A stretch of 64,000 nt of DNA, taken from assembly GCA_965644315.1 (NCBI GenBank), contig CBFFRQ010000081.1, positions 62,001-126,000 on the forward strand, given 5' to 3'. The translations under genes were made by a program, and so were the position numbers. Source of the stretch: Caecitellus pseudoparvulus. Its lineage: Eukaryota; Protista; Bigyra: Bicosoecida. The notes beneath the pieces are model-generated. The model worked only from the letters and a program-made list of their open reading frames with translations, ran no database searches and was not told the DNA's origin. Positions 7,969-29,200 of this stretch are shown piece by piece. Each line of letters starts with the position of its first letter. Position 1 is the first letter of the stretch.

Positions 7969-8038
7969 AGTGCGCTGCCACAGCGTGGTGAGTGTGTGTG
8001 TGTGGAGGGAGCAATGCATTCCTTCGACGTTGGCGGGG

Positions 8039-8072
8039 TCACCGCTCGGCGTGGGCGGCGATGACGTCAGCG

Positions 8073-8103
<31 letters not shown>

Positions 8104-8631
8104 CCCCACTGAGGGGGGTGGCGTCGTTGCCCTTGGGGTGGATGAAGCACACGTCGTGCCCTGCAGCGCCCTTGCGGATGCCACCAGGCGTGAAGCGCAT
8201 GCCTTGCTGCCCCAGCCATGCCACAGCTGCAGGCAGGTCGTCCACCCACAGCCCGACGTGGTTCAGCGCAGGCACGTGCACCTTGGGGGACTTGCCTGCG
8301 TCCAGGGGCTGCATGATGTCCACCTCCACAGCGTGGGGGCCGTGGCCCAGGGTCAGGATGTCCTCATCCACGTTCTCCTTCTCGCTGCTGAAGGTGCCAG
8401 TCTTGGTCAGCCCGAGACTGTCCACCCACAGCGCCGACAGCGCGCTCTTGGACAGGCCCCCCACAGCAATCTGCTGCAGGCCAAGCACACGGAAAGGGCG
8501 TGTCTGTGAAGATTGCAAGGGAAGGAGTGGGCGTGTCTGTTCTAGGTCCAGGAGGGGCTTGGCGCCAGGGCACGCACGGCGCTGGCAGTGGACAGCGCTC
8601 GTGCGCCTCGTGCCACGGCGGAGGACAGCAT
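8039..8631 (-). CDS. VOC/glyoxalase-family protein (methylmalonyl-CoA epimerase-like) with a probable mitochondrial transit peptide; 2 exons (8631-8578, 8503-8039)
   Basis: [59 protein letters not shown]. Exon 1 ([18 protein letters not shown]) is spliced in frame through a GTGCGT...CACAG intron at 8504-8577. Confidence 0.85.
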
Positions 8632-8773
8632 GGCGTCCGAGCAGAGACCGCGCAGGTGCAATACAATGAAAACTCGCAGAGTTTGAATGCCAGTCGCATG
8701 TAGAAGAGCGCTGCGTTGTCGTGTGTGTGGGTAGTGCCGCGGCGGCGCTCTTGCTGCGCGAGCTGGAGAAGCG

Positions 8774-8782
8774 TGCGGAAAT
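8774..8782 (-). promoter_or_regulatory. ATTTCCGCA motif in the divergent promoter between the VOC gene and the ANK-kinase-KEN gene
   Basis: One of ten exact copies, all near gene 5' ends or in first introns. Confidence 0.55.
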
Positions 8783-8866
8783 TGGCCCAGCCGAAACGCC
8801 GAAGCACTCCGCTGCCTCGCCGAGAGGGAGCTGGGCTGGGCATCAGCAGCATGGCTGGAGAGCAAG

Positions 8867-11800
8867 ATGAGCGGCGTGGCGGCATCAACATCTGCGCCAG
8901 CGTCATTGAGGACTATGAAGGCCACCAAGCCTCACAGTGAGTGCGCAGACCAGGCAATCAGTGCCTGCTCTGCTTCACACACGTGGCCGCCCGCCCCCAC
9001 GCCCAGAGCGCAGCACAGCCCCTCCCAACTGGTCAGCATTTCACCCAACGTCTCTGTGTCCAGTAACCTGGCGCAGTTGTCTCTGCCCCCTGGTACAGCG
9101 CCTGACGCAGGGTCAGAAGGGCCACCTGGCAGCAGCACTGGCTCGCCAGCCTCTGCTCCACGCGCTGGCACCAGCGCCCCGAAGCCACGCGTGGTGCAGG
9201 GCAGCCGGCGCATGACCCGCACCAGCAGCCTCGTGTCGTCCACCTCCGCAGGGCGCTCCCGCGCTGGCGCCTTCTCTGAGGCTGGCAGCGAGGCAGAGGG
9301 GGGGTCGGACGGCGCCGGAGGGGACCTCATGATCGCCCTGCGCAGCGGCAAGGTGCACGCCGCCCTGGAGTTGCTGGAGAGCGACCCGTCCTGCCTGAAT
9401 GCCCGTGGCGCCAGCCCTCTGAACGATGTGCTGCCCCTGCTGCTGCACAGCTTGGCGGAGCAGTACGACACCTTCGGCATCACCGGCAGCGAGGCGGTGT
9501 TCTTCACCTTCTTCCGGCGCCTGTGGCAGTTCATGACGCCGCACGAGCAGACCAACAACCGCACGCTGGCGACGTTCTTCTACGCCGCCTGCAAGTTCAA
9601 CCAGCTGGACTTCGTGGCGTGGGTGCTGCCCATCATCGCCGCCCGTACCACCCTCTCCATCGAGCGCCTCATCGTGGACCGCCTGTACAGCTACAACCGC
9701 CTGCGGCACTGTGCGCTGCACTACGTCGCACGCAACGGCAACGTGCGCCTGCTGCAGTGCCTGTCCTCCTTCGTGGCGCACCCGCTGCTGCAGGAGGCCA
9801 GCCTGCTCATGCAGTTCCCGCCGGGGCAGGAGGGTATGGAGTTGTCGTCGCTGTACATCGCAGCCCAGCAGCGCCATGCCGGCTTCGTGCGCCACGCGCT
9901 GGCGCCACACCTGGAGGCCCAGGGGGGTGGCGGGGAGGGCGGCGCGTCACCCTTCACGCCCGCCCTGCGCCAGCTGGTGCTGTGCCTCATGGTGCACGGG
10001 CTCATCGCGCTGGACGACACAGCCACTGCCGCGTGGATGGTGGGGGAGGCGCTGCCGGGCCTGGACCCCCTCATCTTCGCCCTGCCCATGGCCTTCTCGG
10101 GCCCCATGTCCCTGCCAGTGTCCCTGGAAGCCAAGGCGCAGGCCAAGCTCAGCGCCGCGTCGGCAGGTCGCACCAGCCGACCGCCCAATGCCCCAAACTG
10201 CCTCGGCTTGCACTTGTGTGTGTACCGCATGCCGCCGTCCACTCACCAGGCGGCGTCGGTGCCCTCCGCTGCCGCTGCAGTGGGCATTCAGGGCGTGGGC
10301 GGGCCCAAGGAGACGGCGGTGGAGCGCGTGAAGGCGTTTGCAGCAGCCATGTCCGCCAACCCTGCCTCGTCCAGCGACGAGGAGGGCAGGGGGCGCGCGC
10401 TCACATCGCACCTGGTCAACGCAGCGGCAGCCACCACCCCCTCCGCGCCCCAGCCAGCACTGCGCCTGTTCACGTGGCTGCTGGAGCGCTTCCCCTGGTT
10501 GGCGTCGGTGCCCTTCGCCATCGCCGTGGGGGAGGGTGGCGCACAGCACATCGAGTGGCGCAATGCGTTTCACTCGGCCTGCTCGGTGGGGCACCGTGGC
10601 GCCGCCCAGGCGCTGCTGGCTGCAGACCGCACGCTGCTGCACACGTACACGACTTCGGGCGGCAGTGACAGCGCCGACGGCAGCTCGGCAAGTCACCGTG
10701 GCAGCGTGGTGGAGAACCACCCCCTGTGGCTGGCGCTGGGCCAAGCGCGCATGACGGGGCAGTATGACTTCCTGCGCTGGCTGCTGCAGCACTACCCGCC
10801 GCTGGTCATCGAGCGGGAGATTTACTCCCAGTGCGAAGGGCTGTACGCCGTCGTGCCTGACTTCGTGAAGGCGCTGTGCAAGGCGACTGGCCTTCGCCTG
10901 CGCAAGTTCATGCCGCCTGGCGCCGCCCGCCCGTCCGACAGCAGCAGCATCCCCCTGGACCGCAGCGTGTCCAGCGCAGGCTCCACAGACGGCGGCAGTG
11001 GCCTGACCGCGGAGCAGGCGGAGACACTGCGCGCGGCAGCAGAGGCGTCCCTGCTGGCAGACTTGGCGGCAGAGGAGGCGGCCAGCGTCGCGTCAGGCGC
11101 GTCGGCCAGCACCGGCAAGAGCAAGGGGTCGCGCCGGCGCCGTAGACGCGCCCGCAAGGGCAGCCACAGCACGCCAGGGGGCGCACCCCGCAGCCGGGCA
11201 GGCAGCGCACCTGACACGCTGCAGCCGCCCACGCCTGCAGGCAGTGATGGCGAGGCTGAGGCGCCGTCCTTCTGGAGGGGGGCGGGGGAGCACGCGGGCA
11301 CGCTGTACGTCGTGGGGCGTGCCACGGGGGTGGTGCCTGCCGAGGCCACACAGGATGACTGGCTGGACTTCACGCCTGTCACATCGGCCGCACGCCGCTC
11401 CGCCCGAAGCCACGCTGCCGCCGCGGCAGGTCAGGTGCGCAGGCGACGGGGCTCTGGCTCCGCCCCCCGCAACCCTGTCCCGGTGCGCCCACCCCACCGG
11501 GCGGGGGCGGGGGTGACTGAGGTCCCACCTGCGGCACAGCGGCCACCTCACTCCAGCCTTGAACCCACCGCCCAAGCAGTGCACAAGCCACCGCCTCAGC
11601 GAGAAGGGGTGAAACAGGCACCACCACCTTCGCCACAGCCAGCCCCGGCACCGGTTGTGGCAGAAGTGCCGCCGCCCCCCGCCCCAGCAGCTGCAGTGGG
11701 CGCTGGGTCCACCCCGCCGGCGCCGCTCCCACAGCCGCGCGAAGAGCACAGCGCAGGAGGGGGCAGCGGCCTGTCAGTGTCGGAAATGGCAGAGGAGCAC

Positions 11801-13288
11801 TTCTTCAGTGACGACGACGAGGGGGAGGAGGTCGTCATTGGCAGCATGCGCTTCCATGAGCGGGACGTCATCGCCGTGGGCAGCGGCGGCACGGAGGTGT
11901 TCCGGGGCCGCTGCGGGCGCCGCCCCGCCGCCATCAAGCGCATGCCCCGGCGCCAACACAAGCTGCGCGAGGGGGAAATCGCCACCATGCTGGACCTGGA
12001 CGACACCGATGCCCATGCTGCCTACGCTCGGCATGTTGTCCGGTACTACGACGACGCGCGGGACCGGCATTTCCTGTACTTGGCCATGGAGCTGTGCGAC
12101 TGCACTCTGGAAACAGCCGTGTGCACTGCCCGGTCGCCCCCTGCACACAGTCCAGCCACAGCCACTGCAAGCGACGGCGCAGCATCCCCCGATGACGACA
12201 TTGCCTCCAGCCAAGGCCCCAGCCAGGCGCCGGGGGGGGCAGGCGCTTGGCAGTCCGTGCAGGCTGTGAAGGCACACCCCATCGAGGTGTGTCGGCAGGT
12301 CGTGGCTGGCGTCGCGCACTTGCACACCCACGGCGTGGCGCACCGGGACATCAAGCCCAACAACATCCTCCTGAAGCGCGGTGTCGCCAAGCTCTGCGAC
12401 TTTGGCCTCGCCCGCAGCGCTGCCGCGGAACGGTCCCGACACACTGCCACCACCGCCGGCGGCACGCCTGGCTGGCAGCCCCGGGAAGTGGTGGCCGCTC
12501 GCATGAAGGGGAGAGCTGTCACGGGGGGCGTGCGCGCTGATTTGTTCGGCGTGGGGTGCGTGCTGTTCTTCATTCTGAGCGGCGGCGCACACCCGTTCGG
12601 CGAGGCGGTGCTGCGGGAAGGGCACATTCTCAAGGACCACTTCTCACCCTTCCGCGCTCTGAATGCCTCCTCCGGCACACAGGACATTCGCCTCGTCTCC
12701 CATGACGCCGCCTGCCACCTCATCCGGCAGCTGCTGCACCCGCAACCTGACAGGCGCATGCCCATGGTGCAGGCACTGGCACACCCTCTGTTCTGGGACG
12801 CAGCCTCCTCCATCGCCTTCACCGCGCACTTCTCTGACATTGCCAAGCGCCTGTACGGCGTCCTGCCTGACCCCGCTGTCAGTCCCGCCCTGCAGGCCCT
12901 GGAAGCCACCTACACTCGCATGGAAGGGGCTGAGGCTGACTGGGCTGCCAAGCTGGCGGCAGTGGATGCGGCAGCGGGCCGGACATGGCCTGCCGCGGGC
13001 GGAGGCAGTGGAGGGGGGGAGGAGGAGTGGAAGTCCCCCCTGGGATACCTGCGCATGTTCAAGCGGCGCAAGGCGCACTGCCTGGGGCTTGTGCGTGCTG
13101 TGCGGAACATTGCATTCAGCCACGCCGTTGCGTACGTGCACGCAGGCACCTTCAGCAGCGTCAAGGACGCGCACGAGTACTGGCTGGCGGCCTTTCCTTG
13201 GTTGCCTGTCACTCTGTACGAAATCGTGGTCAGCGGCGTGGACCACCGCCTCTCCGAAGAGCTGCGAGCGCTGCTTCCCACTGCCTAG
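8867..13288 (+). CDS. Ankyrin-repeat + IRE1-type Ser/Thr kinase + KEN (RNase) domain protein, RNase L/IRE1-like; start uncertain (8867 or 9212)
   Basis: Ankyrin-like units: ALHYVARNGNVRLLQCL, SLYIAAQQRHAGFVRHAL, NAFHSACSVGHRGAAQALL, HPLWLALG..FLRWLL. Kinase: IAVGSGGTEVFRG, AAIKR, FLYLAMELC, HRDIKPNNILL, DFG, GTPGW, DLFGVGCVLFFILSGGAHPFG. KEN: HPLFWD..DWAAKL..GLVRAVRNIAFSH..YWLAAFPWLPVTLY. Confidence 0.85.
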   Translation: MSGVAASTSAPASLRTMKATKPHSECADQAISACSASHTWPPAPTPRAQHSPSQLVSISPNVSVSSNLAQLSLPPGTAPDAGSEGPPGSSTGSPASAPRAGTSAPKPRVVQGSRRMTRTSSLVSSTSAGRSRAGAFSEAGSEAEGGSDGAGGDLMIALRSGKVHAALELLESDPSCLNARGASPLNDVLPLLLHSLAEQYDTFGITGSEAVFFTFFRRLWQFMTPHEQTNNRTLATFFYAACKFNQLDFVAWVLPIIAARTTLSIERLIVDRLYSYNRLRHCALHYVARNGNVRLLQCLSSFVAHPLLQEASLLMQFPPGQEGMELSSLYIAAQQRHAGFVRHALAPHLEAQGGGGEGGASPFTPALRQLVLCLMVHGLIALDDTATAAWMVGEALPGLDPLIFALPMAFSGPMSLPVSLEAKAQAKLSAASAGRTSRPPNAPNCLGLHLCVYRMPPSTHQAASVPSAAAAVGIQGVGGPKETAVERVKAFAAAMSANPASSSDEEGRGRALTSHLVNAAAATTPSAPQPALRLFTWLLERFPWLASVPFAIAVGEGGAQHIEWRNAFHSACSVGHRGAAQALLAADRTLLHTYTTSGGSDSADGSSASHRGSVVENHPLWLALGQARMTGQYDFLRWLLQHYPPLVIEREIYSQCEGLYAVVPDFVKALCKATGLRLRKFMPPGAARPSDSSSIPLDRSVSSAGSTDGGSGLTAEQAETLRAAAEASLLADLAAEEAASVASGASASTGKSKGSRRRRRRARKGSHSTPGGAPRSRAGSAPDTLQPPTPAGSDGEAEAPSFWRGAGEHAGTLYVVGRATGVVPAEATQDDWLDFTPVTSAARRSARSHAAAAAGQVRRRRGSGSAPRNPVPVRPPHRAGAGVTEVPPAAQRPPHSSLEPTAQAVHKPPPQREGVKQAPPPSPQPAPAPVVAEVPPPPAPAAAVGAGSTPPAPLPQPREEHSAGGGSGLSVSEMAEEHFFSDDDEGEEVVIGSMRFHERDVIAVGSGGTEVFRGRCGRRPAAIKRMPRRQHKLREGEIATMLDLDDTDAHAAYARHVVRYYDDARDRHFLYLAMELCDCTLETAVCTARSPPAHSPATATASDGAASPDDDIASSQGPSQAPGGAGAWQSVQAVKAHPIEVCRQVVAGVAHLHTHGVAHRDIKPNNILLKRGVAKLCDFGLARSAAAERSRHTATTAGGTPGWQPREVVAARMKGRAVTGGVRADLFGVGCVLFFILSGGAHPFGEAVLREGHILKDHFSPFRALNASSGTQDIRLVSHDAACHLIRQLLHPQPDRRMPMVQALAHPLFWDAASSIAFTAHFSDIAKRLYGVLPDPAVSPALQALEATYTRMEGAEADWAAKLAAVDAAAGRTWPAAGGGSGGGEEEWKSPLGYLRMFKRRKAHCLGLVRAVRNIAFSHAVAYVHAGTFSSVKDAHEYWLAAFPWLPVTLYEIVVSGVDHRLSEELRALLPTA

Positions 13289-13316
13289 ACGCCGCCAGCC
13301 CGGCACTGGCAGCCAC

Positions 13317-14501
13317 CTACTCCGACGGCGGCGTGTCGCCTGAGGGTGGAGCGCCACCCCCACCGCCCATCATGCTGGCCATTTGTGCCAGGGCAGCGGG
13401 GTCCATCCCGCCCCCGTTCCCGCCGCCGCCGCCCATCATGCCGCCCATCATGCTGGCCATCTGCTGCATGGCGGCAGGGTTGCTCATCAAGTTCTGCGCC
13501 ATCTGCTGGAACTGCGGGCTCTGCATCATCTGGCCCACAGCAGGGTTGCTCAGCAATGCACCCAAGTCAGGCATGCCGCCCGCCCCCATACCAGGGAAGC
13601 CTGCCGGCATGCCGCCGCCCATGCCGCCGGGAGCTACCGGTGGCGGCGTCGGTGGCGCGACCTGCTGCAGCTTGGAGGCGGCAGACTCCTTGCCCTGCAG
13701 CGCCGCAGCGTTGGAAGGCTCCAGCTCCAGCGCCGCCTCAAACGCCTGCACTGCACCCTCGTACTGGCCCAGGTGGAAGCGTGCCGTGCCCAGACGGTTG
13801 TGAGCCTTCACGTACTGCGGGCTCAGCGCAATGGCAGCGTCGGCGTCAGCGGCAGCCTTGGAGTACTCGTGCAGCGTCAAGTGGGCAGCAGCGCGGTTGC
13901 ACAGGTACGTGTGGGCGCTGGCCCCCTGGGGTGCCAGCTCCAGCGCCTTGGTGTAGCAGGCGATAGCGTCCTGTGTGCGGCCTTCTTGCAGGGCGGCGTT
14001 GCCCTCAGCTTTGGCTTTCTCAGCTGCCTCCTCGTCTTGCACCGTGGGCTGGGGCGCCTTGCCGGTCTCGCCACTTGCCATGCGCTGGCGAAATCGGTCC
14101 AGAGCTGCCTTGAACTTCCCGACGTACTCTGCGAGCAAGCAAGTGAGGCAAGTGAGGGCATGACATGCGCAGAAAGCCACCACGAGTCGAACGTGCGCAC
14201 CTGGCGATGCAGCAGCAGCCTCCCCGAAGTAGCCACGGCCCCGAAGGCTGGTAATGTACTTCTCGAATAGCTCCGGCTTTGCCACTCCGTCTCCACGGCC
14301 CGCTTCGAAAGCCTCGTTCAGAGGAGCATGGGTGGCAGCAGTGTCAAAATCCGCATCCGTCAAGGACACAGCTCCAGCCAGCGCATCAGCCAGCGCCACT
14401 GCCTCCGTCCCTGCGTCAGGCCCCACCGCATGCAGATACTGCACAATGGATGCAATCAGAGTCTTGTCCACCGCAGGTCCAGTGGAGCCTGCAGAAGCCA
14501 T
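13317..14501 (-). CDS. SGTA: SGTA/Sgt2-like TPR co-chaperone; intron at 14129-14200
   Basis: N-terminal dimerisation motif (DKTLIASIVQYL), three TPRs (AEKAKAEGNAALQEG..YLCNRAAAHL..YVKAHNRLGTA), Met/Gly-rich STI1-like tail (LLSNPAVGQMMQSPQFQQMAQNLMSNP). Confidence 0.85.
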   Translation of the reverse strand: MASAGSTGPAVDKTLIASIVQYLHAVGPDAGTEAVALADALAGAVSLTDADFDTAATHAPLNEAFEAGRGDGVAKPELFEKYITSLRGRGYFGEAAAASPGAHVRLVVAFCACHALTCLTCLLAEYVGKFKAALDRFRQRMASGETGKAPQPTVQDEEAAEKAKAEGNAALQEGRTQDAIACYTKALELAPQGASAHTYLCNRAAAHLTLHEYSKAAADADAAIALSPQYVKAHNRLGTARFHLGQYEGAVQAFEAALELEPSNAAALQGKESAASKLQQVAPPTPPPVAPGGMGGGMPAGFPGMGAGGMPDLGALLSNPAVGQMMQSPQFQQMAQNLMSNPAAMQQMASMMGGMMGGGGGNGGGMDPAALAQMASMMGGGGGAPPSGDTPPSE

Positions 14502-15968: not shown

Positions 15969-17492
15969 TTACAATTTGGCGTCGTGCAGAGGCTGCGGAG
16001 GCTGAATGCGAACTCCCTGCGCAACAACGATGTCATGCAAGGCTGCCATGATGGCCTTCAGCTGTGCGTCCGACGTCTCGGCGGTGATGGGCAGGTATAC
16101 CAGGCCCGTCATGATGGCCTCCGCGACAACAGGCCAGTTCGCCTTGAAGTGCGGCGTCAGGTTGCTCGCAGCTGTGTACCTGCACACTGGGCCCAGTTGC
16201 GACGTGCCCTGCGTGACGTCGAAGCCCTTGAGCAGCATGGCCTTGCAGACCTCTGCAGGCTTCGGGACTAGGACAGGGAATAGCCAGAATGCGTGGTGGG
16301 TGGCTTTTGTGCCTGGCACCAGTGCTGTGCCGTGGGGGAACTTGGCCAACTCAGCAACAGCTGCCCACCCAGCTGCGACGCGTGCATGCAGGTAGTCGGT
16401 GGGAAACGCCTCCAGGCGTCGTAGGAGGAGGTGAAGGAGTGGAGTGGAGGGCGCGTAGCGGATGAGGTTGATGAGTTGAGGGCCAGGGAAGCCCCGGATG
16501 GCCCCCGTCACCAACTCATCCCAGGAGTGCCCCGTACCCTCCACCGCCTTGACCAGGGCGCCATACACGGCAGGGGTGGTGATGCTGTGCATGGCGCCAT
16601 ATCGGGCAAGACGGCCAGCCAGCACGGAGCGTGGCCGGAGCGGGTACCCCTCGTGCAGCTTGTGCAGCTGGCTGTGCAGGGTGGCGTCCTTGATGCTGGC
16701 GATGCAGGCGCCGAAGGCTGTGCTGGTTTTGATCGTGCCGAAGCTGAACAGGGTCAAGTCTGCGTCGGGGTGCCCCGTGTACCCCACAGGCAAGGTTGAC
16801 TGCTGGGTGTGGCCCACTGCAGCTGCCGGAGGGCCCATGAAGCACTCGGCACAGTCCTCAACCACCACAAGCCCATGCTTAGCGGCGACGCGGCAGACCT
16901 CTGTCATGTCATTCAGCACACCAAAGACATGGGCAATGACGATCATACGGGTGGAGGGGGTGATGGCAGCTTCCAAGGCTGCCGCTGTCACGCCGACCGT
17001 GTCGAAGGTGACGTCCACTGCGACAGGCTTGCAGCCATGGTGCTGGGCGATCTTCACCATGTCCTTGATGGTGATGCCGCTCATGAGCACCTCAGAGCCC
17101 ATGGGCAAGCGAAGCACCCGGAAGAGCAGGTCGAATGTGGTCCTGGGGAAGGCGCAGGGGCGGCTGCATGTCGGCGTCGGCATCACAGAAAGACCAGCCC
17201 ACCGCCACTCACCTCACGCTGAGGGTAACCAAGGAGTGCTTGCGCCCCCAAGCTGCCTGAATTGCGGTCGTGACATCCTCTCGGCCAGCATCACTGCACG
17301 TCAGGCACTTGCTCAGGCCAAAGGCGATGTCCGAGAAGTCTGCAAGCCAGGCGGGGCAACATGTTGCAGGGCTGGGGCAGGTGCCCAATTTCCGCACGCA
17401 CCCGTCTCCAGTCGTTTGCGAGGCACGATGCCCCATGGAGCAGCCTCTGACACTGCCTCGAAGCTGCCATACGGCTTCATGTACGCTGCCAT
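15969..17492 (-). CDS. DegT/DnrJ/EryC1/StrS-family PLP-dependent aminotransferase; 3 exons
   Basis: AAITPSTRMIVIAHVFG, GLVVVEDCAE, and ADLTLFSFGTIKTSTAFG (PLP lysine). The spliced N-terminus is MAAYMKPYG..PRKRLETDFSDI..LVTLSVRTTFDLL. Confidence 0.85.
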
Positions 17493-20471: not shown

Positions 20472-20581
20472 ATTCACCAACACATCCAATGCATAGTGGC
20501 AACCAAGGCATGCTCCTGTCAAACCCCTCTTAGGCATTTGCACCTTAGAGCCCCGCTTGCGCGGAGCGTTGAGCCTTGCCT

Positions 20582-20590
20582 TGCGGAAAT
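20582..20590 (-). promoter_or_regulatory. ATTTCCGCA motif (as TGCGGAAAT) 7 nt upstream of the TPC ATG
   Basis: Exact copy of the recurrent motif. Confidence 0.55.
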
Positions 20591-20597
20591 TGAGTGC

Positions 20598-23468
20598 ATG
20601 GACGCCCAAGGAGGAGCACAGGATGCATTCTACACGCGTCGCTGGGCATTCTGCGGGTGCTCTGAGGATTCACTGGAAAGACATTTGGCATGGCTCTTCC
20701 CCCAAGCTAGCGCTGCTCCCAGTAAGCCCGCATGTGCTTGGCCAATTCGTGGCTCATGGCAGATTGCCACCGCTTCGCTGCTCGTCACAGCTTCTTTCCT
20801 CCTCGGCACCACCCTCCTCAAGGACTCACTGAAAGGAAGGAAGGCCAGCTATGGTTTCGACAAAGTGTCACTCTTGCTGCGCAAGCTTTGGCATCGGAAG
20901 CTGTGGCGCAACTGGATCACACTCCTGGCAGTGGGGCAGATGTGCCTGGCCTTCATCGAGCGGCCCAGTGGCTTCACCCTGCACAGCCACCAAAAAATCT
21001 TCTCTTCCTGGCCGCTGGAGCTCGTCATTTGCTTGTTTTACGTCCTGGACCTGTGGCTCAACGTTGTGCACAGGGGGTGGCGGAAGGCTATCTTCGGATG
21101 GCACAGGGTTGAGGTGGGCATCACGTGTGTCTTCCTCCTGGACATCATCACCAGCGCCAGTGGCTTGATCCCCTTCCAGTTCAGCCGCTTCTTCCGGCCC
21201 CTATTCATCATCTCCAAGCGCAGGCACATCCGTTTCTACTTCAGCAGCATCCTGGCAGCCGTGCCGTCCATGGTGCCGGTCATGATGTTCCTCCTTCTCA
21301 CCATTTTTGTCGGCGCCTTCATGGGCACAGTGCTCTTCTCCTCCAACACTGTCGGAGCCGGCGCACTGGCTAGCTTGAACTCCACACGCATCGACGCACC
21401 CCCGTATTGCTCAGTCTTCACCACCGAGTGCACGGACTACTTCCAGGACGTCTCCATTGCCATGTACACCACCTTCGACCTTACCAAGAAAACGAACTGG
21501 CCCCTCGTCATGCTGCCGCTGCTGGAAATTGCCCCGGCGTCAGGCCTCTTCTTCGTTGCCTTCCAGCTGTTGGCCCATTTCTTCGTCTTTCGCTTGCTTC
21601 TTGCTTCCGCGTTCTCTTCCTTCACCGCTCAGAACAGCGTCAAGTTCCTCGTTAGGCAGCACCTCACCCGCGCAGCGGTGCACCAAGCCTTCACATTGCT
21701 GGCTGATGCGCCAAATGGTATGACTCTCAAAATGTGGCGGAAGGTTGCAGCAGAAGTCGCCCCCTGGCACTCGCAAGATGCGTTGGATGTCCTCTTCATC
21801 ACAGCCCGAGGCCAGCAAGAGCTCCTTCGCGAAGAGGGATTTGCCTTGGCCTCGCGTTTGCTCAGTCTGGGCAGCACGCCCAGCCACATGTATGAAGATG
21901 CCGCTTTGCTCCCTCAAGACATGCAGGGCCGAGCAGCATCCACGGCACAATCCGCAGAAGGTCAGCTGCAGCAGAATCGGACAGGGGGGGACGCTGCGCA
22001 GCCACTCCTCGGGCAGCCGGCCCCTGCTCGTGCACAGAGTCAAGTGGCCCGCTGTCGAGCTCGCCTGCGAGACTTCTGCCAGTGGAAAGCGGTCGTGTGG
22101 GTCCTCGATGCAGCGATCCTGGCCGCGGTCGGCATTGAGCTTGCGCTGACGGCAGCTGTCTTTGACGGCAGCGGGTCAGCAACAGCACTCCGGAACTTGG
22201 TCGTGCTGTCTGACTTGGTTGTCATCGCGTTCCTAGCGGAAGCTATACTGAAAGTGTTCGCGCTTGGACCTACAGCGTACTGGTCGGATGCATGGCACAA
22301 GCTTGACGCGACAGTTGTGCTGGCGTCCACAGCCGCGCTCATCCTGCAGTCTGTCAATGCGCAGCGCTCCGCAAGCATGCTGAAAGTCACCATTCTCCTC
22401 CGTATGGGCCGCCTTCTTCGCGTGCTCCGTGTCCTCAAGCGTTTCGACACTGTACTCATGGCCATCCGGCGCATCTTGCCCATGATCTGGCGCCTTGGCT
22501 GTGTGCTCTTCATTGTGTTGTACACCTGGTCTATCTTGGGCATGGAGGCATTTGCAGGCACTCTGAGCCGGTCAAACACTCGAGTCGTGGCCTCCTCGTA
22601 TGGTGAGCGAGGCTTCTGGGTGCTGAACTTTGACAGCTTCTACTCCGCGTGCATCACCGTCTTCTCGCTCCTGCTGGAGACGCAGAGTCCCATGCTGGCA
22701 GAAGGCGCCATGGCAGCGTACGATTCATGGGGCCCCATGGTGTTCTTCGTCGCGTACACTGTCACCGTCGTTTGGCTTGTCTCCACAGTCATCGTCGCAC
22801 TGATCGTGCAGGGCTTCTCGGCACAGATCGTGGACTTGCAGCTCACCAGTAACGGCGCTGTGCACGTCTGGCGCCTGTTGACAGCCCAAGCGCAGATCAA
22901 ATGGAGCCGAACTGGCTCTCAGCGTCGCATGCGCCAATGGTTGCAGTTCCACCAGCGCGGCAAGCTCATGAACATAAACAACCGCCTGTACGGGCGATCG
23001 GCCATGGTCACCCTGCACGCTTATAAAGGCCACCACGTGCAGGTGCACTGGCCAGACATCGCACAAGCCGACAGTGCTTCACAGCTTGCCCCCCCGAGCA
23101 GTGGAAGCGCTGAAGAAAGAGCCCGGCTGCCGGGACATGGTGTCGAACTCAGCCCATCGCCAGCTGCCAGGAGCACGTCACAGACGTCACGACACGCAAA
23201 CCATGCTTCAGATGCTCCTGACCACCAAGCCGAGCTCGTCGGACTGCGGCATTTGGCCTTGTCAGAGTTTGTCTCCCTTCCTCACTTGTTTGCAGAGGCT
23301 GTTGAGGCGGACGCAGACGGTCCGGAAGCTGCTGCCACCATTCAGCACGTGCAAAGCTTGCTCAACGCAGCATCCAAGCAGCTGCAGCAAGTGCAGCCGC
23401 ACCTCCGCTCCCACATTGAGATGCCACAGAATTTGTACGAACTTGAGCTTCGATCCAGCTTCACTTGA
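20598..23468 (+). CDS. Two-pore channel (TPC)-like 2x6TM cation channel
   Basis: LAFIERPS after S1. S4 segments SRFFRPLFII and LLRMGRLLRVLRVLKRF. Pore helices YFQDVSIAMYTTFDL..NWPLVMLP and LNFDSFYSACITVFSLL; YTWSILGMEAFAG. Confidence 0.85.
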   Translation: MDAQGGAQDAFYTRRWAFCGCSEDSLERHLAWLFPQASAAPSKPACAWPIRGSWQIATASLLVTASFLLGTTLLKDSLKGRKASYGFDKVSLLLRKLWHRKLWRNWITLLAVGQMCLAFIERPSGFTLHSHQKIFSSWPLELVICLFYVLDLWLNVVHRGWRKAIFGWHRVEVGITCVFLLDIITSASGLIPFQFSRFFRPLFIISKRRHIRFYFSSILAAVPSMVPVMMFLLLTIFVGAFMGTVLFSSNTVGAGALASLNSTRIDAPPYCSVFTTECTDYFQDVSIAMYTTFDLTKKTNWPLVMLPLLEIAPASGLFFVAFQLLAHFFVFRLLLASAFSSFTAQNSVKFLVRQHLTRAAVHQAFTLLADAPNGMTLKMWRKVAAEVAPWHSQDALDVLFITARGQQELLREEGFALASRLLSLGSTPSHMYEDAALLPQDMQGRAASTAQSAEGQLQQNRTGGDAAQPLLGQPAPARAQSQVARCRARLRDFCQWKAVVWVLDAAILAAVGIELALTAAVFDGSGSATALRNLVVLSDLVVIAFLAEAILKVFALGPTAYWSDAWHKLDATVVLASTAALILQSVNAQRSASMLKVTILLRMGRLLRVLRVLKRFDTVLMAIRRILPMIWRLGCVLFIVLYTWSILGMEAFAGTLSRSNTRVVASSYGERGFWVLNFDSFYSACITVFSLLLETQSPMLAEGAMAAYDSWGPMVFFVAYTVTVVWLVSTVIVALIVQGFSAQIVDLQLTSNGAVHVWRLLTAQAQIKWSRTGSQRRMRQWLQFHQRGKLMNINNRLYGRSAMVTLHAYKGHHVQVHWPDIAQADSASQLAPPSSGSAEERARLPGHGVELSPSPAARSTSQTSRHANHASDAPDHQAELVGLRHLALSEFVSLPHLFAEAVEADADGPEAAATIQHVQSLLNAASKQLQQVQPHLRSHIEMPQNLYELELRSSFT

Positions 23469-23570
23469 ACAGCGTAACTTTGTCCAAATGTACATGTTTT
23501 TCGCAAGTCCCGGAATGAGTAACTTGCATGTCGAACTTCATATTACCACTTTTGTTCGTTATTCGTAGAA

Positions 23571-23652
23571 GCGCAGATGCCCGAGCGGTCTAAGGGGTTG
23601 TGTTCAGGTCGCAATGTATTCGTACTCGTGGGTTCAAATCCCACTCTGCGCA
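23571..23652 (+). tRNA. tRNA-Leu(CAG), copy 1
   Basis: Acceptor GCGCAGA/TCTGCGC with A73; anticodon arm TTGTG-TTCAGGT-CGCAA; long variable arm GTA-TTCG-TAC; T arm GTGGG-TTCAAAT-CCCAC; followed by a T6 Pol III terminator. Confidence 0.95.
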
Positions 23653-23658
23653 AGCTTC

Positions 23659-23673
23659 TTTTTTCTTCTTTTT
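23659..23673 (+). terminator. RNA polymerase III oligo-T terminator of tRNA-Leu copy 1
   Basis: TTTTTTCTTCTTTTT starts 6 nt after the tRNA 3' end. Confidence 0.75.
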
Positions 23674-26600
23674 CCATGGACAAAGTGGTCGACTGGATCT
23701 GACACCACAAACCGATACCCATTTCCTGAACTACGCAGCCACAGCCACACCAAATCTCAGCCGACGACAAAACCGAAAAGCAACGCAATGACCGAGAAAG
23801 ACACTGCAAGCTCAGAAGGGTGACCTGTCATTCTGCATCGAAACTCAGCCATGACTTCCACTGCCCTCTCAACACCCTCAGCCAAGCACTGCCATGCGCA
23901 TCACTCGTTCAACAACACAAACTGCCAATAAAACCTGCACCCCACAAGCCGCATCGATGTGCAGTGGTGCAGAAAAGCTATCCGACAACAAAACAACACC
24001 AAATGTCGCGCTTGAAGCACACAACAAAGGGCACATTCGATGCGCTCAGCGAGTGGTAATTGCGAACCAAGCGGGCTACAAACCAGTCAATTAATACCTC
24101 TGGCTGATAACGTGATGTGAAAACACGGCCCCGATCACACAGTGCAAGCTCTGCAATTAGCTGTCTACGCCTGAACAGCATCTGACAGAAAGCAAAGATG
24201 TACTGAAGAGAGCTGAGCGCCAAAGGTAGTTCCTTTGACGCTTCCAGGTTGATAGATACACATGTAATCGTGTAACAGCCAAATGAATGATGTTCTGCAA
24301 TGACATCCCGACGGAATTTTTTGTCACAGAAATAGGTAGCGGAATCGCAGGGTAAATATTCCCCGAATCGATACAAATATGGCACAACAAGTCATGATTT
24401 GCCAGCTGAACGCTCCAGAGAGTGACCCTTTGCACACAAAAGAACAATCCTTGCGCAAATAATTTCTCACGGTTCTCGAACAAACATCACTGCTACTCTG
24501 CTCAACGTGCTTCCGATGGCAATGGCATTGTTGAAATCAGTAGACTACCTTGAGGATGTAGGAACAAGCTATTGGTCGCAAGCAACATTTACTCCTTGGG
24601 TTGGATACTAGTCCGGTGCATCTTATCTGTGATGATCTTTTGAAGAGTGTGAAATCATCAATTCTTCCTCAATAAAGTTTCATCAGAAAGCCAGTTAAGA
24701 CTACTTCTTGAAGAATTGGTGAACAACAATCTCAAAAGCGCTGCAACGAACGTTGGAGAATCACACCAGATATAGGGAAAAAGCAATTTGTACGATACAG
24801 AGTTTGGTCAAGAACATGATTTGCTTTTCAACATCACACACAAGGCATTTGGTTGCAAGGAAGAGATTCATCCCTCTACAGTTAGGGAATCACGGCTCAA
24901 GCTGTCTGCGCAGACAGAATTACTCCTTGTTTGACACCACCCGTAGAACTTACATCGTACACAGTACGAATTCTTGTATCAGTGCGCTTGAGAAAGTGAG
25001 AAAATCAGGCAATTCAGAATGAAAGCACTCGATACTTTTCACCAGCAGCGTTATTTTCTTGGCTTTAATCTCCCTGCAAGTTTGTTCATGAAAGCCATGG
25101 ATTCGCAGCATTTTGGAAGCAATCTTGGCTTCTTCTTTCACTGGAACCCGACATTAACTCTATATCAACCCGCCATGCATTCATTGAAGAGGAAGTGGTT
25201 CTCCAAGTTCGGACGATATTCTCGGTTGATTTCTTTAAGAATTATTTGGCTACAGAGTTTGAATCGGGTCAAGTCTAAACCTCAAGCAAGGCATGCAGTG
25301 ATTTTGCTTAACATGGCTCAAGTGGGCCATAACTTCGTGAAGTGGGGTTTGGTTCTTGCCTCTCTGGAAATGCAACAAAGTATTTGAATGAAGAATGCTT
25401 TAGCATGGCATGCATTTAATAACCTGAAGTATTGTTCAAAGTGTAGAGCTTGTCTTGTTGACTTGAAGGAACTGTTCTTTTTGGCATCGTGAGGCGCTTT
25501 CTTTTGCTTGGTCCTTGTTTTAAAAGCTGCACAGGTTGAGGTAGTGAAATGATTTCATTCGACAAGAACCGATCTCGATCTAGGACTGATTCATGCGCAC
25601 TAAGATAGATATCTTTTGATGCACGTTGACCTCTTTAAATCTCTACTTGGTCTTGTTCAACATCAAGATTCCAGTGCAATGTGGAGCAAGGAACAATGCT
25701 TTGGAGTGGATACGATGTGAGATGCATCCACTTGCTTAAATCAAGGATCGCAAGTCTATTCAATGTCGCCTTTACTTGCTGAAAGGTATATTCCCAAGGA
25801 AGTTGAAGGACTGCGAAGGGTTCTCAAGCAAGATCCCGCATACATTCTTAAAGTATGTTTTGGTACAGAGGACATCGAAGGAGTGATTTGCGTCTTACAT
25901 TAGACTTGGTCCGGTTGCGCTTGAACGATTTCTTGGTTTTTCTGTCCTATACCATTCTTTTCTGACTTGTCACATTTAGCAAAGAGTGTAAGGATGTGTA
26001 CGCATGAATCGTCCAAGTTTCACGCATTGTTGGGAGTAGTTGGATGTTTTAGACTTTTTCCGGCTCACTACTTGTCCTTCCCAAGTTTGCAAGAGCATTC
26101 ATGCTTCTGGTTAAGTCGCGTGTTTCGTTTGTTCTCCTTGAGAAAGGAAGAGCATCATACAATACTCCATGTCTTTTCTTCTCGTAAATGCAGAGGGAAG
26201 GGATATCGTCCTCTTTGGGAAATTGTCCAAATGCCGAATCCTTTCAGCCGTTTTGACTCGAAAGATCTCGCTAAATGGATTCATGCTGTGCATTGTTTGC
26301 ATTCAGCGCAACATCAAGTTTCAGGAACGGTTCCTGCACGATGGACTGTCCATGGTCAGTCTGTATCCGCTGTACAGTTTAAACCATTATGTGCAAGTTA
26401 TCATGAAAATGTTTTGCTGGACGTTCCTGCCTTTCTTGGCAGACTGATTGTGTTTGGCTTTTGGCCGCGCATTTGATGACATCAGTGTTGAATTGTTCGT
26501 TTGGGAGTTGCTGCTTTTGGGTGGTATTCTTATGCTGTGTTTTGTTGCCTGCATGCTTTCAGTGTGGTAGAGTGCTAAATGTTGGTGGGAACTGAGATTG

Positions 26601-27414
26601 AGGTGTGTGTCATGGTGATCCCAATAAGTTCAGGATCAACAGATGTCTGTTCTTCCCCGCTTGGTTTCCTAAAGCTTCTTCAATGGACACATTGTTGTGT
26701 TAGAGGTCTTTTGTGGTGTTTGGCTGCAGGCTTTGGGCGTTGTGAAGTTGACATGCGAGGAATTTCTAGGGTTGAACGCATTGGTTTCTGGCATAGCGAA
26801 CGTTCCCATTAGCATGTGCGCTGTTTGACGTTTCAGGTGTTCATCTCTCTGCGCTCTGTCCGAATGGGGGCATTCTTGCATGTGCTTTCGGCGATCAGGC
26901 AGGCACCCTTCGCTGGGGTTTTCACGTTAACGGATGGGTCGACTCACTCAATGTTTCTTGTCGTGAAGACTTGTTCGCACACAAATGATGTAAAAAAAGG
27001 TTGTGGTCTACGTGAAGCAAAATCTTGGGCACTTCTGAAGTATTTCCTTGGGCTGTAACGCAGTGCTAGGTTGCCTTTGGCTGTAGAGGAAGCGAGTCAT
27101 CCAAAATGACGCTGCGTACTTCTGAAAGCCATGTGCGTGTAATATATATGCTGCTTGAGCTTTCGCTTCTGTCTTGCTTCTGTAGCTCAGGGGTAGAGCG
27201 TCGCTTTCATAAGGCGCAGGTCAAGGGTTCGATCCCCTTCAGGAGCACCTTTTTTCACTCACGACATCCGATTTTTGTCCGTTCTTTTGGATGGGAAGCA
27301 AGAATTGACGTTCGCATCCTTTTTTCAGAACTTGTCCGTTCGATGGGGCTTTCTTTTGTGATTCGTGATACTAATTCGCCGTGTGGTTCCTGTTCCAATG
27401 CCAGGCACGGCCAT
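23666..27414. other. Low-GC, apparently non-protein-coding island; candidate centromere/replication origin
   Basis: Sampled core lines are 30-42% GC (25381-25440: 18/60; 24661-24720: 20/60; 25801-25860: 25/60), against roughly 60-70% elsewhere. Only short ORFs with no recognisable motifs. The left arm is C/A-rich and the right arm G/T-rich. Confidence 0.55.
27176..27247 (+). tRNA. Elongator tRNA-Met(CAT)
   Basis: Acceptor GCTTCTG/CAGGAGC with A73; D arm GCTC/GAGC; anticodon loop TTCATAA; T arm AAGGG-TTCGATC-CCCTT. G1:C72 and a TTC T-loop argue against initiator. A T6 terminator follows, and a TATA-like AATATATA lies about 30 nt upstream. Confidence 0.9.
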
Positions 27415-27427
27415 GAAAAAAGAAGCT

Positions 27428-27509
27428 TGCGCAGAGTGGGATTTGAACCCACGAGTACGAATACATTGCGACCTGAACACAACCCCTTAGACCGCTCGGG
27501 CATCTGCGC
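27428..27509 (-). tRNA. tRNA-Leu(CAG), copy 2 (identical to copy 1, inverted)
   Basis: Exact reverse complement of 23571-23652, with an oligo-T terminator on the minus strand (A6 at 27416-27421). Confidence 0.95.
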
Positions 27510-27652
27510 TTCTGGGGATGATGTTAAGTTTTGCATACATAAGAAAGAATGCGTGTTTTGTACGTATGTCCATTGCGCCTGAACTGTCTGAGGTAGGCAT
27601 AGTCTTTCATTTTTGATTTCATGCCATAGGGATTGTTGAGCATGAAGGTAGA

Positions 27653-29200
27653 TTGAGAGTATGCAGAGTAATTATGTCTTTCCTTCACGCAGCGCATTTT
27701 GTGATTGGTTTGCTGCACGCTGCGGAATTCGCTGGTCCTGGTCCGTGTGTGGAGCACTTGTTAGCGCACGCTGAAGAATGTTGTGGAGTGCTCCGACTGC
27801 TTTTCGGGTTGGAGCAGTATAAGAGGCGGTTTGAGTTGGCCTCTTGGGCTTCGTCTCTGATCTCTTCGTTGCGGGGTCGCCTAACTGCGCAGATTTCAGG
27901 CGATGCTCTGCGGAGCGTGGTTGCCGCACATGCTCAAGAGGGCCGCATTGAAAGGTCTCGGAACGGTGACCCCTGGTCGGCTTGCCTCTACATGTGTTAT
28001 ACCGTTGACCAGCTTCCACGGTGCTTGCCAGCGTTGCTGCATTTGCAAGGCGGACGGACAGACAAGGCGTCCACAGTGTTGCAGCTGGCCCTGCTGATGC
28101 TGGGCATCGCAAACACTGACCCTAGTGAGGGGAGCCCCTGGTTTGAGGCATGCACGGTCCAGAAAAGCTTCTGCCAGCCTGTTACTGAACAGCGTGCTCC
28201 TCTGGCACATGTTTTGGTCGTGGCCAAGGTGCCTCGGGCTGGAAAGTGCAAGACCAGGCTGGCAGCGTCTTTGAGCGGGTCGGGCTTCTCCACCCAAGCT
28301 TGCCATACAGCGGCCGAGGCATTTGCTCGAGCAAGCATCCAGGACCTGGTGACGAGGTACGGCAGTTTCGAATGGTGCAGGGCAACGTGGGCGTTCTTGT
28401 CCAGGCTTGATGATGCGAGGCAGCTCAGAGCTGACTTCGACGAAGCCGAGGGAGTGCTTCGCGCCTGTGATCTGCATGTTCCTAGCATCCAACTTTGCGC
28501 TGTTTCGAGTGCTGGGCTCGCGACTTCTCCACAGCCTCGTGACTCCAGACACGAGGCAGGTACTTGTCCAGCACATGGGTGGCAGTGCCGACAGACGAGG
28601 ACACAGTGCAAGAAGATGCACGATGCGCCATTCGCGCTTGGTTCTGTGTTGAGCTGGTTGGTGCCACATGCTTTATTTGTTGCTGATTGCCCCTTCAGGT
28701 CAGTTGTTTTGCTGGGCATGGACTCACCGACCCTCCCTGGCCATGTTGTTGAGCTTGCGGCACGACGAGCCGCCGCTTGTGGCGGCGCTGTCGCTCTGCC
28801 TTCCTCTGATGGTGGATACGTTTGCCTCGCGCTTGGGGCGGCAGCTGTGGTTGCCTGCAGCCACATGTGCCCAGGGGTTGGCGGCAGTCCTCGGCTGCGC
28901 GCAGGTGCGGCTTTCGACGGGGTCGGGCGACACCAAGCGTGGTCGACAGCCCGTGCCTTGGACCACCAGCTTCGCTGTGTCTTGCAGACTGGCCTACCAG
29001 TGTTTTTGCTGAATGAGGAGGGGGAGTTCGCCCAGGTTACCACTCCTTCGCTTGGCAGCATTCCAGCAAGCGGCTTCGTCGATGTCGACGAATTGAAAGA
29101 CTTGCTGTGCATTGTCGATGAAGCTTTGGGCGGTTCGGCGCAGCATGTTGCGCGCTGCCTCCGCTCAGATCCAGTGCTGCAGGCTGCCATCAAAGTATGA
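27653..29200 (+). CDS. DUF2064 / TIGR04282-type glycosyltransferase-like (CofC/GT-A fold) protein with an N-terminal extension; start uncertain (first ATG about 27674)
   Basis: VLVVAKVPRAGKCKTRLAA, VVLLGMDSPTLP, LPSSDGGYVCLAL, AWSTARAL, FVDVDELKDL. Confidence 0.75.
   Translation: MRVCRVIMSFLHAAHFVIGLLHAAEFAGPGPCVEHLLAHAEECCGVLRLLFGLEQYKRRFELASWASSLISSLRGRLTAQISGDALRSVVAAHAQEGRIERSRNGDPWSACLYMCYTVDQLPRCLPALLHLQGGRTDKASTVLQLALLMLGIANTDPSEGSPWFEACTVQKSFCQPVTEQRAPLAHVLVVAKVPRAGKCKTRLAASLSGSGFSTQACHTAAEAFARASIQDLVTRYGSFEWCRATWAFLSRLDDARQLRADFDEAEGVLRACDLHVPSIQLCAVSSAGLATSPQPRDSRHEAGTCPAHGWQCRQTRTQCKKMHDAPFALGSVLSWLVPHALFVADCPFRSVVLLGMDSPTLPGHVVELAARRAAACGGAVALPSSDGGYVCLALGAAAVVACSHMCPGVGGSPRLRAGAAFDGVGRHQAWSTARALDHQLRCVLQTGLPVFLLNEEGEFAQVTTPSLGSIPASGFVDVDELKDLLCIVDEALGGSAQHVARCLRSDPVLQAAIKV

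What the first reader, a model, noticed from the sequence alone, without database searches (positions are those of the whole stretch)
23567..27513. Low-GC island bracketed by inverted, inward-facing tRNA-Leu genes: candidate tRNA-bounded regional centromere
Seen in the sequence: intergenic gaps elsewhere in this window are under about 600 nt, yet here ~3.9 kb has no recognisable protein gene. Its core drops to 30-42% GC in sampled lines, against roughly 60-70% outside. It is delimited exactly by two identical tRNA-Leu(CAG) genes in inverted orientation, with a third tRNA (Met) just inside the right border. All three tRNA genes I found in the 64 kb sit on these borders. Established: diatom and Cyanidioschyzon centromeres are few-kb low-GC unique regions; fission-yeast centromere cores are flanked by inverted repeats whose tRNA genes act as chromatin barriers; Komagataella and Candida tropicalis centromeres are inverted repeats around a unique core. 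Inference: this may be a small regional centromere whose inverted repeat is reduced to the tRNA genes themselves, acting as TFIIIC/Pol III barriers. I do not know of this arrangement being described in a protist of this kind.
Basis: partly seen in the sequence, partly recalled or inferred. Interest (0 to 1): 0.85.

Follow-up and report, generated by a model that had tools for sequence, protein, structure and literature searches.

The report
tRNA-bordered candidate centromere of marine protist
In the gene-packed genome of a marine protist, a 3.9-kb gene-free, AT-richer and unusually variable stretch closed at both ends by facing tRNA genes is likely a small centromere with its own replication origin, which would be a new layout for this group, though no direct test of centromere function was possible.

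Summary
Two identical tRNA-Leu(CAG) genes face inward across 3.75 kb, with tRNA-Met inside the right end. No protein family, repeat or other RNA family was found in the core. A distant relative has a degenerate tRNA-like gene at the same left border. Against: the 99-nt 'inverted repeat' is only the tRNA-Leu family unit, shared with a third copy elsewhere. The relative's next 0.9 kb is not low-GC, and one core frame is marginally stop-poor. One-per-chromosome and CENH3 binding could not be tested. Verdict: probable centromere with a fixed origin (about 0.6); barrier role of the tRNAs untested.

The parts
20601..23468 (+). Left flanking gene, two-pore-channel-like ion channel; start approximate, 5' end probably split by a small intron or frameshift
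   Evidence: Pfam Ion_trans, 2 stretches, E 1.8e-38; same-species proteins differ only at the N-terminus; 4-fold sites C-rich, GC4 0.72 falling to 0.60 toward the island
23567..23665 (+). Left copy of the 99-nt tRNA-Leu unit (4-nt leader, gene, 13-nt trailer with T run)
   Evidence: 100% complementary to 27415-27513; unit shared with a third locus (loose ends)
23571..23652 (+). tRNA-Leu(CAG), facing into the core; B box at 23631
   Evidence: ARAGORN; cmscan 50.1 bits; B-box scan
23666..27175 (.). Unique, non-coding, low-GC, highly polymorphic core (candidate CENH3 domain)
   Evidence: No family, repeat or RNA hits; 5.7% vs 0.57% differences in listed contig pieces; depth about equal to the flanks
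24600..25900 (.). GC minimum (38-44% per 200 nt) and strand-skew switch (A/C-rich left, G/T-rich right); predicted constitutive replication origin near 25050-25400
   Evidence: cumulative keto minimum at 25047, 0 of 2000 block shuffles at each of four block sizes; strongest switch in the window, 476 against 184 for the next
24422..26473 (+). Marginally stop-poor reading frame, possibly a trace of an old orphan gene; not an intact gene
   Evidence: 11 stops per 600 codons against 17-27 in other frames; 7 of 1000 dinucleotide and 36 of 1000 trinucleotide shuffles reach it; only hits are ORFs on other haplotypes of this island, two of them frameshifted relative to the window
27176..27249 (+). tRNA-Met(CAT), elongator type by its G1-C72 pair (criterion recalled), pointing outward toward the right tRNA-Leu
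   Evidence: ARAGORN; cmscan 64.3 bits with alignment
27415..27513 (-). Right copy of the 99-nt tRNA-Leu unit
27428..27509 (-). tRNA-Leu(CAG), facing into the core; B box at 27449
27674..29200 (+). Right flanking gene, DUF2064 domain protein (508 aa); lowest synonymous GC of 16 genes (0.52) and G/T-rich at 4-fold sites
   Evidence: Pfam DUF2064 E 9.4e-08; 99% identical 508-aa protein in the collection; keto fraction 0.61 against 0.43 in TPC on the same strand, Fisher p 1.7e-6

Best explanation
The 3.5-kb stretch between the tRNA genes is a single-copy, non-coding, AT-richer and fast-changing region with a strand-skew flip near its middle, and it is likely a small regional centromere that contains a constantly used replication origin. 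Shown: its composition, skew, lack of recognisable genes, allelic variation and tRNA borders. Inferred mechanism: centromeric chromatin would hold an early origin at a fixed place. Forks leaving it would enrich each leading strand in G and T, giving the mirror skew. Suppressed crossing-over and a raised mutation rate would lower GC and let alleles diverge. The two tRNA-Leu genes would meet the outgoing forks head-on and carry TFIIIC/Pol III, so they may act as fork-pause and chromatin-boundary sites between the centromere and genes only 100-160 nt away. This last step is the weakest (about even odds if it is a centromere).
For: Skew: left part A 0.33 / C 0.28, right part T 0.35 / G 0.28; 0 of 2000 shuffles at each block size; strongest switch in 64 kb. 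The polarity is the one expected for an origin with G/T-rich leading strands, and C. albicans centromeres show this paired GC and AT flip (PMC2924309, section read). It is opposite to what read-through from the inward tRNAs would give (inference). The flip also shows at 4-fold sites of the two adjacent + strand genes. Variation: 620 differences in 10,803 nt of island pieces against 205 in 35,829 nt of flank pieces, over 51 listed pieces from 7 runs. In X8, mostly one haplotype, it is 5.6% against 0.75%. 11 of 20 classified flank SNPs are synonymous, so synonymous divergence is about 1.6% and the core is about 3 times that; yeast centromeres evolve 3 times faster than unconstrained DNA (PMC3155921, abstract). 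Single copy: in X1 two half-depth alleles sum to about flank depth. GC4 rises with distance from the island, Spearman 0.56, p 0.02, 16 genes. Size and GC trough fit diatom (2.4-5.6 kb) and Blastobotrys (about 6 kb) centromeres. A distant relative keeps the left-flank gene order and has a tRNA-like gene 15 nt after TPC in the same orientation.
Against: No chromosome-wide count and no CENH3 data. In the relative L001 the 928 nt after the tRNA-like gene are 57% GC and carry short inverted and direct repeats, so a conserved low-GC core is not seen there, although the contig ends early. The GC4 gradient is uneven: 0.85 at 21 kb left, but 0.64 at 30 kb right. The skew does not extend beyond the nearest genes. 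One frame is marginally stop-poor. In Cafeteria burkhardae 85-93% of low-GC regions are virophages (PMC8547959, passages). Divergence counts come from the longest listed pieces only, which favours diverged stretches in mixed samples. X1 and X3 may be the window's own source.
Confidence: 0.6

Rival explanations
1. A non-centromeric, constantly used replication origin or divergently transcribed spacer in a tRNA cluster. Being the only large unconstrained stretch, it drifts to low GC and high diversity.
For: A skew flip marks an origin or divergent transcription, not a kinetochore as such. Koren et al. found weaker skews at two internal origins and one-sided skews at telomeres. tRNA flanks are hypermutable (PMC6130373). 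The flanks are coding, so part of the tenfold contrast is purifying selection.
Against: tRNA-linked mutagenesis was measured within 40 nt of the genes, whereas the core centre, over 1 kb from any tRNA, is 4-11% diverged in most listed pieces. The core exceeds the synonymous estimate about threefold. In C. albicans the strongest skews are at centromeres. Other gaps in the window are 55-65% GC.
Confidence: 0.17
2. A decayed foreign insert (virophage, polinton-like virus, transposon or organellar DNA) that landed between tRNA genes and now evolves neutrally.
For: Low-GC islands in bicosoecid genomes are mostly endogenous viruses. One frame has 11 stops in 600 codons (36 of 1000 trinucleotide shuffles). 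The relative has repeat-like DNA at the matching place. A Gypsy element lies 13 bp from a tRNA gene in Blastobotrys.
Against: No hit in Pfam or PHROGs in six frames, NCBIfam (8 ORFs), PDB sequences, phages or plasmids, or IMG/VR (2 ORFs). Among 1.84 billion representatives only 3 proteins matched the stop-poor frame, all 81-87% identical copies from this island. No terminal repeats other than the tRNA unit. Codon-position bias is weak (chi-square 149 on 128 df). Present at single-copy depth in all four deep runs, with no joint across it in 8 runs. An insert does not explain the symmetric skew or the lowered GC4 of the host genes. It could still be the origin of a later centromere.
Confidence: 0.17
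3. An assembly artefact: unrelated pieces joined through the identical tRNA-Leu copies.
For: No listed contig spans the island. A third tRNA-Leu locus shares the unit. Same-species TPC and DUF2064 proteins lie on contigs of different lengths.
Against: Both flanks run into the tRNA-Leu 5' part and the core's left end starts inside a tRNA-Leu 3' part in runs of separate studies. GC and skew of both flanking genes match the side of the core they adjoin. The repeat is only 99 nt.
Confidence: 0.06

Closest known systems
[quoted passage not shown]
   Same: Few-kb unique non-coding region, local GC drop, fast sequence change, paired GC/AT skew flip marking a fixed origin.
   Different: Different eukaryotic supergroup and a 64% GC background. 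In the passages read, tRNA genes are not described as their borders. CENH3 is shown for Candida, not here.
Phaeodactylum tricornutum centromeres (bioRxiv 10.1101/096016)
   Same: 2.4-5.6 kb, mostly intergenic, low GC, no conserved repeat or motif.
   Different: The word tRNA does not occur in that paper's main text. The core here is 41-45% GC, low only relative to its host. Kinship of the host with stramenopiles is probable but unverified.
Schizosaccharomyces centromeres with tRNA boundaries (PMC6538654; PMC2040200 by listing only)
   Same: Intact tRNA genes at the edges of a non-coding core; tRNA position kept between species while intervening DNA is not.
   Different: No imr or outer repeats and no tRNA clusters; about 4 kb in total with genes 100-160 nt away. 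S. pombe centromeres lack a skew.
Inverted-repeat centromeres of Komagataella phaffii and Candida tropicalis (PMC5010909)
   Same: Symmetric layout around a unique core; early replication is predicted here and shown there.
   Different: Their repeats are 2-6 kb (in K. phaffii unrelated between the four centromeres); here 99 nt shared with another locus. K. phaffii centromeres are not GC troughs, and tRNA does not occur in that paper's main text.
Endogenous virophages and polinton-like viruses of Cafeteria and Halocafeteria (PMC8547959; bioRxiv 10.64898/2026.07.28.741278)
   Same: Low-GC islands in a flagellate genome, bounded by inverted repeats.
   Different: About 24 kb with 485-808-bp terminal repeats and capsid, ATPase and replication genes; none of these found here.

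Membership tests
Small regional (unique-sequence) centromere | Binds CENH3/CENP-A | not testable with these tools
   No ChIP or CUT&RUN data available.
Small regional (unique-sequence) centromere | Exactly one per chromosome | not testable with these tools
   No genome held; it is the only such trough in 64 kb.
Small regional (unique-sequence) centromere | Few-kb gene-free region, the longest gap locally | tested here: met
   4.1-kb gap against 87-1308 nt elsewhere; no family hits.
Small regional (unique-sequence) centromere | GC trough relative to the genome | tested here: met
   40.7% lowest kb against 64% outside.
Small regional (unique-sequence) centromere | Unique, non-repetitive sequence | tested here: met
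   No tandem or long internal repeats; depth about equal to flanks in 4 runs.
Small regional (unique-sequence) centromere | Origin-type paired GC and AT skew flip (Candida type) | tested here: met
   pattern as in PMC2924309.
Small regional (unique-sequence) centromere | Faster change than synonymous sites | tested here: met
   About 5.6% against an estimated 1.6%; a rough estimate from listed pieces and 20 SNPs.
Small regional (unique-sequence) centromere | Position kept in relatives with unrelated core sequence | tested here: inconclusive
   One relative: left-flank synteny and a tRNA-like gene kept, next 928 nt unrelated but 57% GC, contig ends there; no relative found for the right flank.
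Small regional (unique-sequence) centromere | Transcriptionally quiet core | tested here: inconclusive
   The one RNA run laid covers 3 of 30 bins; too shallow.
Inverted-repeat centromere (Komagataella, C. tropicalis, S. pombe imr) | Kilobase-scale inverted repeat around the core | tested here: not met
   99 nt only, shared with a third tRNA-Leu locus.
Fission-yeast tRNA-barrier centromere | Intact tRNA genes at the domain borders | tested here: met
Fission-yeast tRNA-barrier centromere | Outer heterochromatic repeats that the tRNA genes separate from the core | tested here: not met
   Protein genes directly adjoin both tRNA-Leu copies; no flanking repeats.
Fission-yeast tRNA-barrier centromere | Barrier activity dependent on TFIIIC/Pol III | not testable with these tools
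   Needs deletion or ChIP.
Endogenous virophage / polinton-like virus | Long terminal inverted repeats with capsid, ATPase and replication genes | tested here: not met
   a very old remnant cannot be excluded.
Retrotransposon or DNA-transposon remnant | RT, integrase, recombinase or transposase domains, element repeats, extra copies | tested here: not met
   Six frames read through stops give no Pfam domain; single-copy depth.
Organellar insert (NUMT/NUPT) | Recognisable organellar genes or RNAs | tested here: not met
   No Pfam or Rfam hit in the core; the host's own mitochondrial genome was not available for a direct comparison.

The most novel reading that the evidence does not exclude
This lineage uses a minimal centromere: a 3.5-kb unique core with a fixed origin, fenced directly against neighbouring genes by single head-on tRNA genes, with no repeats or heterochromatic flanks. 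The fence position would be kept across distant relatives while the tRNA type changes (Leu here, a degenerate Ala-anticodon gene in L001). Fission-yeast-style tRNA boundaries would then have arisen independently in a protist, and centromeres of uncultured relatives could be found from sequence alone.
Probability: 0.25. Interest if true: 0.8.

Novelty: new variant of a known kind. Interest (0 to 1): 0.55.

Why it matters
I found no description of a centromere in a bicosoecid-like marine flagellate in the searches run, and a 2026 atlas calls the centromere state of all 3 protists it sampled cryptic. A candidate with a sequence-only signature (GC trough, skew flip, tRNA borders, allele divergence) can be tested at once on a chromosome-scale assembly. 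If real, it would offer a 4-kb centromere-plus-origin fragment for episomal vectors in a widespread marine protist, and a second lineage in which to ask whether tRNA genes bound centromeres by convergence.

Tried and rejected
No whole genome was held. The tRNA-Leu pattern and the TPC alignment found nothing in viral contigs. Runs X13, X14, X17 and X20 are too shallow (10-23 of 30 bins for the three non-RNA runs, 3 of 30 for RNA): their gaps in the core are no evidence of absence or silence. Apparent homozygosity of the X1 flanks beside a heterozygous core suggested loss of heterozygosity sparing the centromere; rejected as unproven, because contigs drop simple variants and X3 shows mostly half-depth flank pieces. 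An apparent four-gamete pattern at 24198/24233 was dropped, because the window may be a mosaic of two alleles. A TGA=Trp gene in the core was suggested by P0133, which has W at 4 of the 5 window stops it spans; this is best explained by the gene caller's code choice (inference), since TAA+TAG depletion is not significant (51 and 97 of 1000 shuffles). Second- and third-order Markov controls reached the stop count in 53 and 59 of 500 runs. No enriched 6-8-mer motif stood out in the core. Extra B-box-like words are not enriched: 1 in the core against 3 in the left flank. The ESM Atlas gave no result. The IQ-TREE run did not finish; the tree used is FastTree on 34 of those 46 rows. The organism behind the TSA prefix GECG could not be confirmed in papers. 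Earlier scan findings: none bore on this locus.
Full report
Observation. The stretch between the TPC stop at 23468 and the DUF2064 frame is the longest gap in the window. GC is 45% across the finding and 40.7% at the lowest kilobase, against 64% outside and 54.8% for the lowest outside kilobase. The drop is real but shallower and more gradual than stated. Rfam finds nothing in the island above a family cut-off except the tRNAs, and Tandem Repeats Finder lists no array there among its 13 rows.

Host. The window is a gene-dense, intron-poor eukaryotic sequence: 17 of 22 ORFs tested have Pfam hits, among them CNOT1, kinases, Rav1 and copine. It occurs in marine metagenomes and in several coded organism runs. 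In a FastTree of 34 CNOT1 rows the window groups with three unnamed relatives (100) and then in a 7-row set (100) with a EukProt entry of TSA prefix GECG. I recall that prefix as Halocafeteria seosinensis, a bicosoecid, but no call confirmed it, and the tree warns of compositional bias. No protein named as Cafeteria appeared in the 120 rows listed. The host is therefore probably, not certainly, a heterotrophic stramenopile. Paired half-depth alleles in X1 fit a diploid.

Is the core coding or foreign? 27 core ORFs gave no Pfam hit better than E 0.02. The six frames read through stops gave none in Pfam or PHROGs, and 8 ORFs gave none better than E 0.04 in NCBIfam. blastn against phages and plasmids was empty, and two ORFs found no relative in IMG/VR. 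One frame (24422-26473, +) is stop-poor: 11 stops per 600 codons, reached by 7 of 1000 dinucleotide shuffles, 36 of 1000 trinucleotide shuffles and about 11% of Markov controls. phmmer of most of this frame against 1.84 billion representatives returned 3 proteins, all 81-87% identical ORF calls from other alleles of the island. Two of them change frame relative to the window, and single-base indels are common among alleles. So the core is not a working gene. An old orphan gene underneath remains possible. Only this one frame had the deep search.

Strand skew. The left 735 nt of the core are A 0.33, C 0.28, G 0.20, T 0.20; the right 775 nt are A 0.19, C 0.19, G 0.28, T 0.35. The cumulative G+T excess bottoms at 25047, and none of 2000 shuffles reached the observed swing at block sizes 1, 10, 50 or 100. 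Across the window the switch scores 476, the next best 184, sd 106. TPC and DUF2064 lie on the same strand, yet their 4-fold sites are 0.43 and 0.61 G+T (p 1.7e-6), although CNOT1, far to the left, is also 0.44. Koren et al. describe this paired GC and AT flip, with G and T enriched on leading strands, at all C. albicans centromeres and tie it to a constantly used origin (PMC2924309, passages and section 8 read). Divergent transcription from the centre could give the same polarity; read-through from the inward tRNA genes would give the opposite (inference).

Variation. Over 51 listed contig pieces from 7 runs, the island differs from the window at 620 of 10,803 nt (5.7%) and the flanks at 205 of 35,829 nt (0.57%). 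These are the longest pieces; 478 and 25 further pieces were not shown. Runs from four other studies agree: X5 4.8 vs 0.8, X8 5.6 vs 0.75, X13 5.8 vs 1.0, X17 10.0 vs 0.4 per cent. X1 and X3 may be the window's source. In X1, the 29 listed island SNPs that the run carries each sit at about half depth, and two alleles of 25683-26286 carry 66 and 9 differences, so they are 9-12% apart. Of 20 flank SNPs classified, 11 are synonymous, which puts synonymous divergence near 1.6% for X8 and the core at about three times that. Bensasson reports the same factor for Saccharomyces centromeres (PMC3155921, abstract only). tRNA-linked mutagenesis was measured within 40 nt of the genes (PMC6130373, abstract and section 5) and does not account for the centre. 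Depth in the core is close to flank depth, so it is not a repeat family. No contig joins across it, though contigs break at the tRNA copies.

GC of neighbours. 4-fold GC is lowest in the three genes right of the island (0.52, 0.57, 0.59) and rises with distance over 16 genes (Spearman 0.56, p 0.02), unevenly. This fits reduced recombination near a centromere, but it is weak on its own.

The tRNA borders. All three genes have intact B boxes. Loose ends show a third tRNA-Leu locus matching to the same 5' and 3' limits, and further tRNA-Met copies. The 99-nt identity is therefore a gene-family feature and not an imr-like repeat; still, two copies of a small family sit at the two ends of this one gap. 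In L001, a relative with 46-47% TPC identity, the order TPR, two small genes, DegT, a 1006-aa ORF and TPC is kept. A tRNA-like gene with a shortened D arm (32.7 bits, cut-off 29; anticodon TGC) follows TPC after 15 nt in the same orientation. The next 928 nt share no similarity with the window, are 57% GC, and hold 30- and 31-nt inverted repeats and a 23-nt direct repeat. This supports an old Pol III-type element at the left border, but neither confirms nor excludes a low-GC core. No relative of the right-flank gene was found among 7995 candidates.

Mechanism. Most likely a small regional centromere with a fixed origin (0.6). The skew, low GC and divergence would be its mutational footprint. 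With an origin in the middle, both tRNA-Leu genes face the outgoing forks, and head-on tRNA genes pause forks in yeast (recalled). They may thus act as pause and boundary sites next to genes only 100-160 nt away. That role is inferred from fission yeast, where tRNA clusters lie at CENP-A/heterochromatin transitions (PMC6538654, passages). Rivals: a non-centromeric origin or spacer (0.17), a decayed insert (0.17), misassembly (0.06).

Comparison and novelty. It works like Candida, Blastobotrys and diatom small centromeres (passages or one section of each). It is not a member of the inverted-repeat class (PMC5010909, passages) and lacks the outer repeats of fission yeast. Membership among centromeres rests on CENH3 binding and one-per-chromosome, neither testable here. 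Literature: 0 papers held centromere, tRNA genes, low GC and stramenopile together. 3 held centromere and bicosoecid; I read passages of one and saw only listings of two. The Halocafeteria assembly preprint never uses the word (first third read). The Cafeteria virophage paper uses it twice, only in passing. The oomycete paper (PMC7082073, passages) and the 2026 atlas (passages) describe no tRNA-bordered protist centromere in what I saw. Searches were seen as listings. Subscription papers and preprint supplements were not searched, so a prior description cannot be excluded.

Verdict. A real and unusual locus, probably a centromere, rated a new variant of a known kind. Interest 0.55: the case rests on one locus and indirect signals, but it makes a sharp and cheap prediction.

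Noticed in passing
L001:10778-10844 (+): tRNA-like gene with a TGC anticodon, a perfect anticodon stem, about 6 nt missing from the D loop and a T run soon after; it could be a pseudogene, a TFIIIC-binding relic or a tRNA-derived SINE head.
   Followed up: partly
L001:10975-11778: Two short inverted-repeat pairs (30 and 31 nt) and a 23-nt direct repeat in 800 nt; the contig ends at a repeat arm, as at a small mobile element.
   Followed up: partly
window 24422-26473 (+): Marginally stop-poor frame with no homologue outside this island; possible trace of an old orphan gene.
   Followed up: yes
window 20472-20700 (+): The TPC frame is open from 20472, but same-species proteins use another frame for the first residues, suggesting a small intron or frameshift near the 5' end.
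   Followed up: no
window 27176, 27502 and 27514 (loose ends): The 5' flanks of other tRNA loci differ strongly between runs within 10-30 nt of the gene, as expected from tRNA-linked mutagenesis.
   Followed up: no
window 48357-61544 (-): A 4395-aa open frame without stops, with ephrin-receptor-like cysteine repeats and a beta-helix region, probably a giant surface protein.
   Followed up: no
window 15969-17213 (-) and 27674-29200 (+): A DegT/DnrJ aminotransferase and a DUF2064 protein, families mostly known from bacteria (recalled); the DegT gene is syntenic in L001 at 66% identity, while DUF2064 had no relative outside the species.
   Followed up: partly
window 1-14000 versus 27600-64000: Synonymous GC is 0.78-0.85 in the two leftmost genes but 0.52-0.76 in all genes right of the island, so the two sides differ in base composition.
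   Followed up: no
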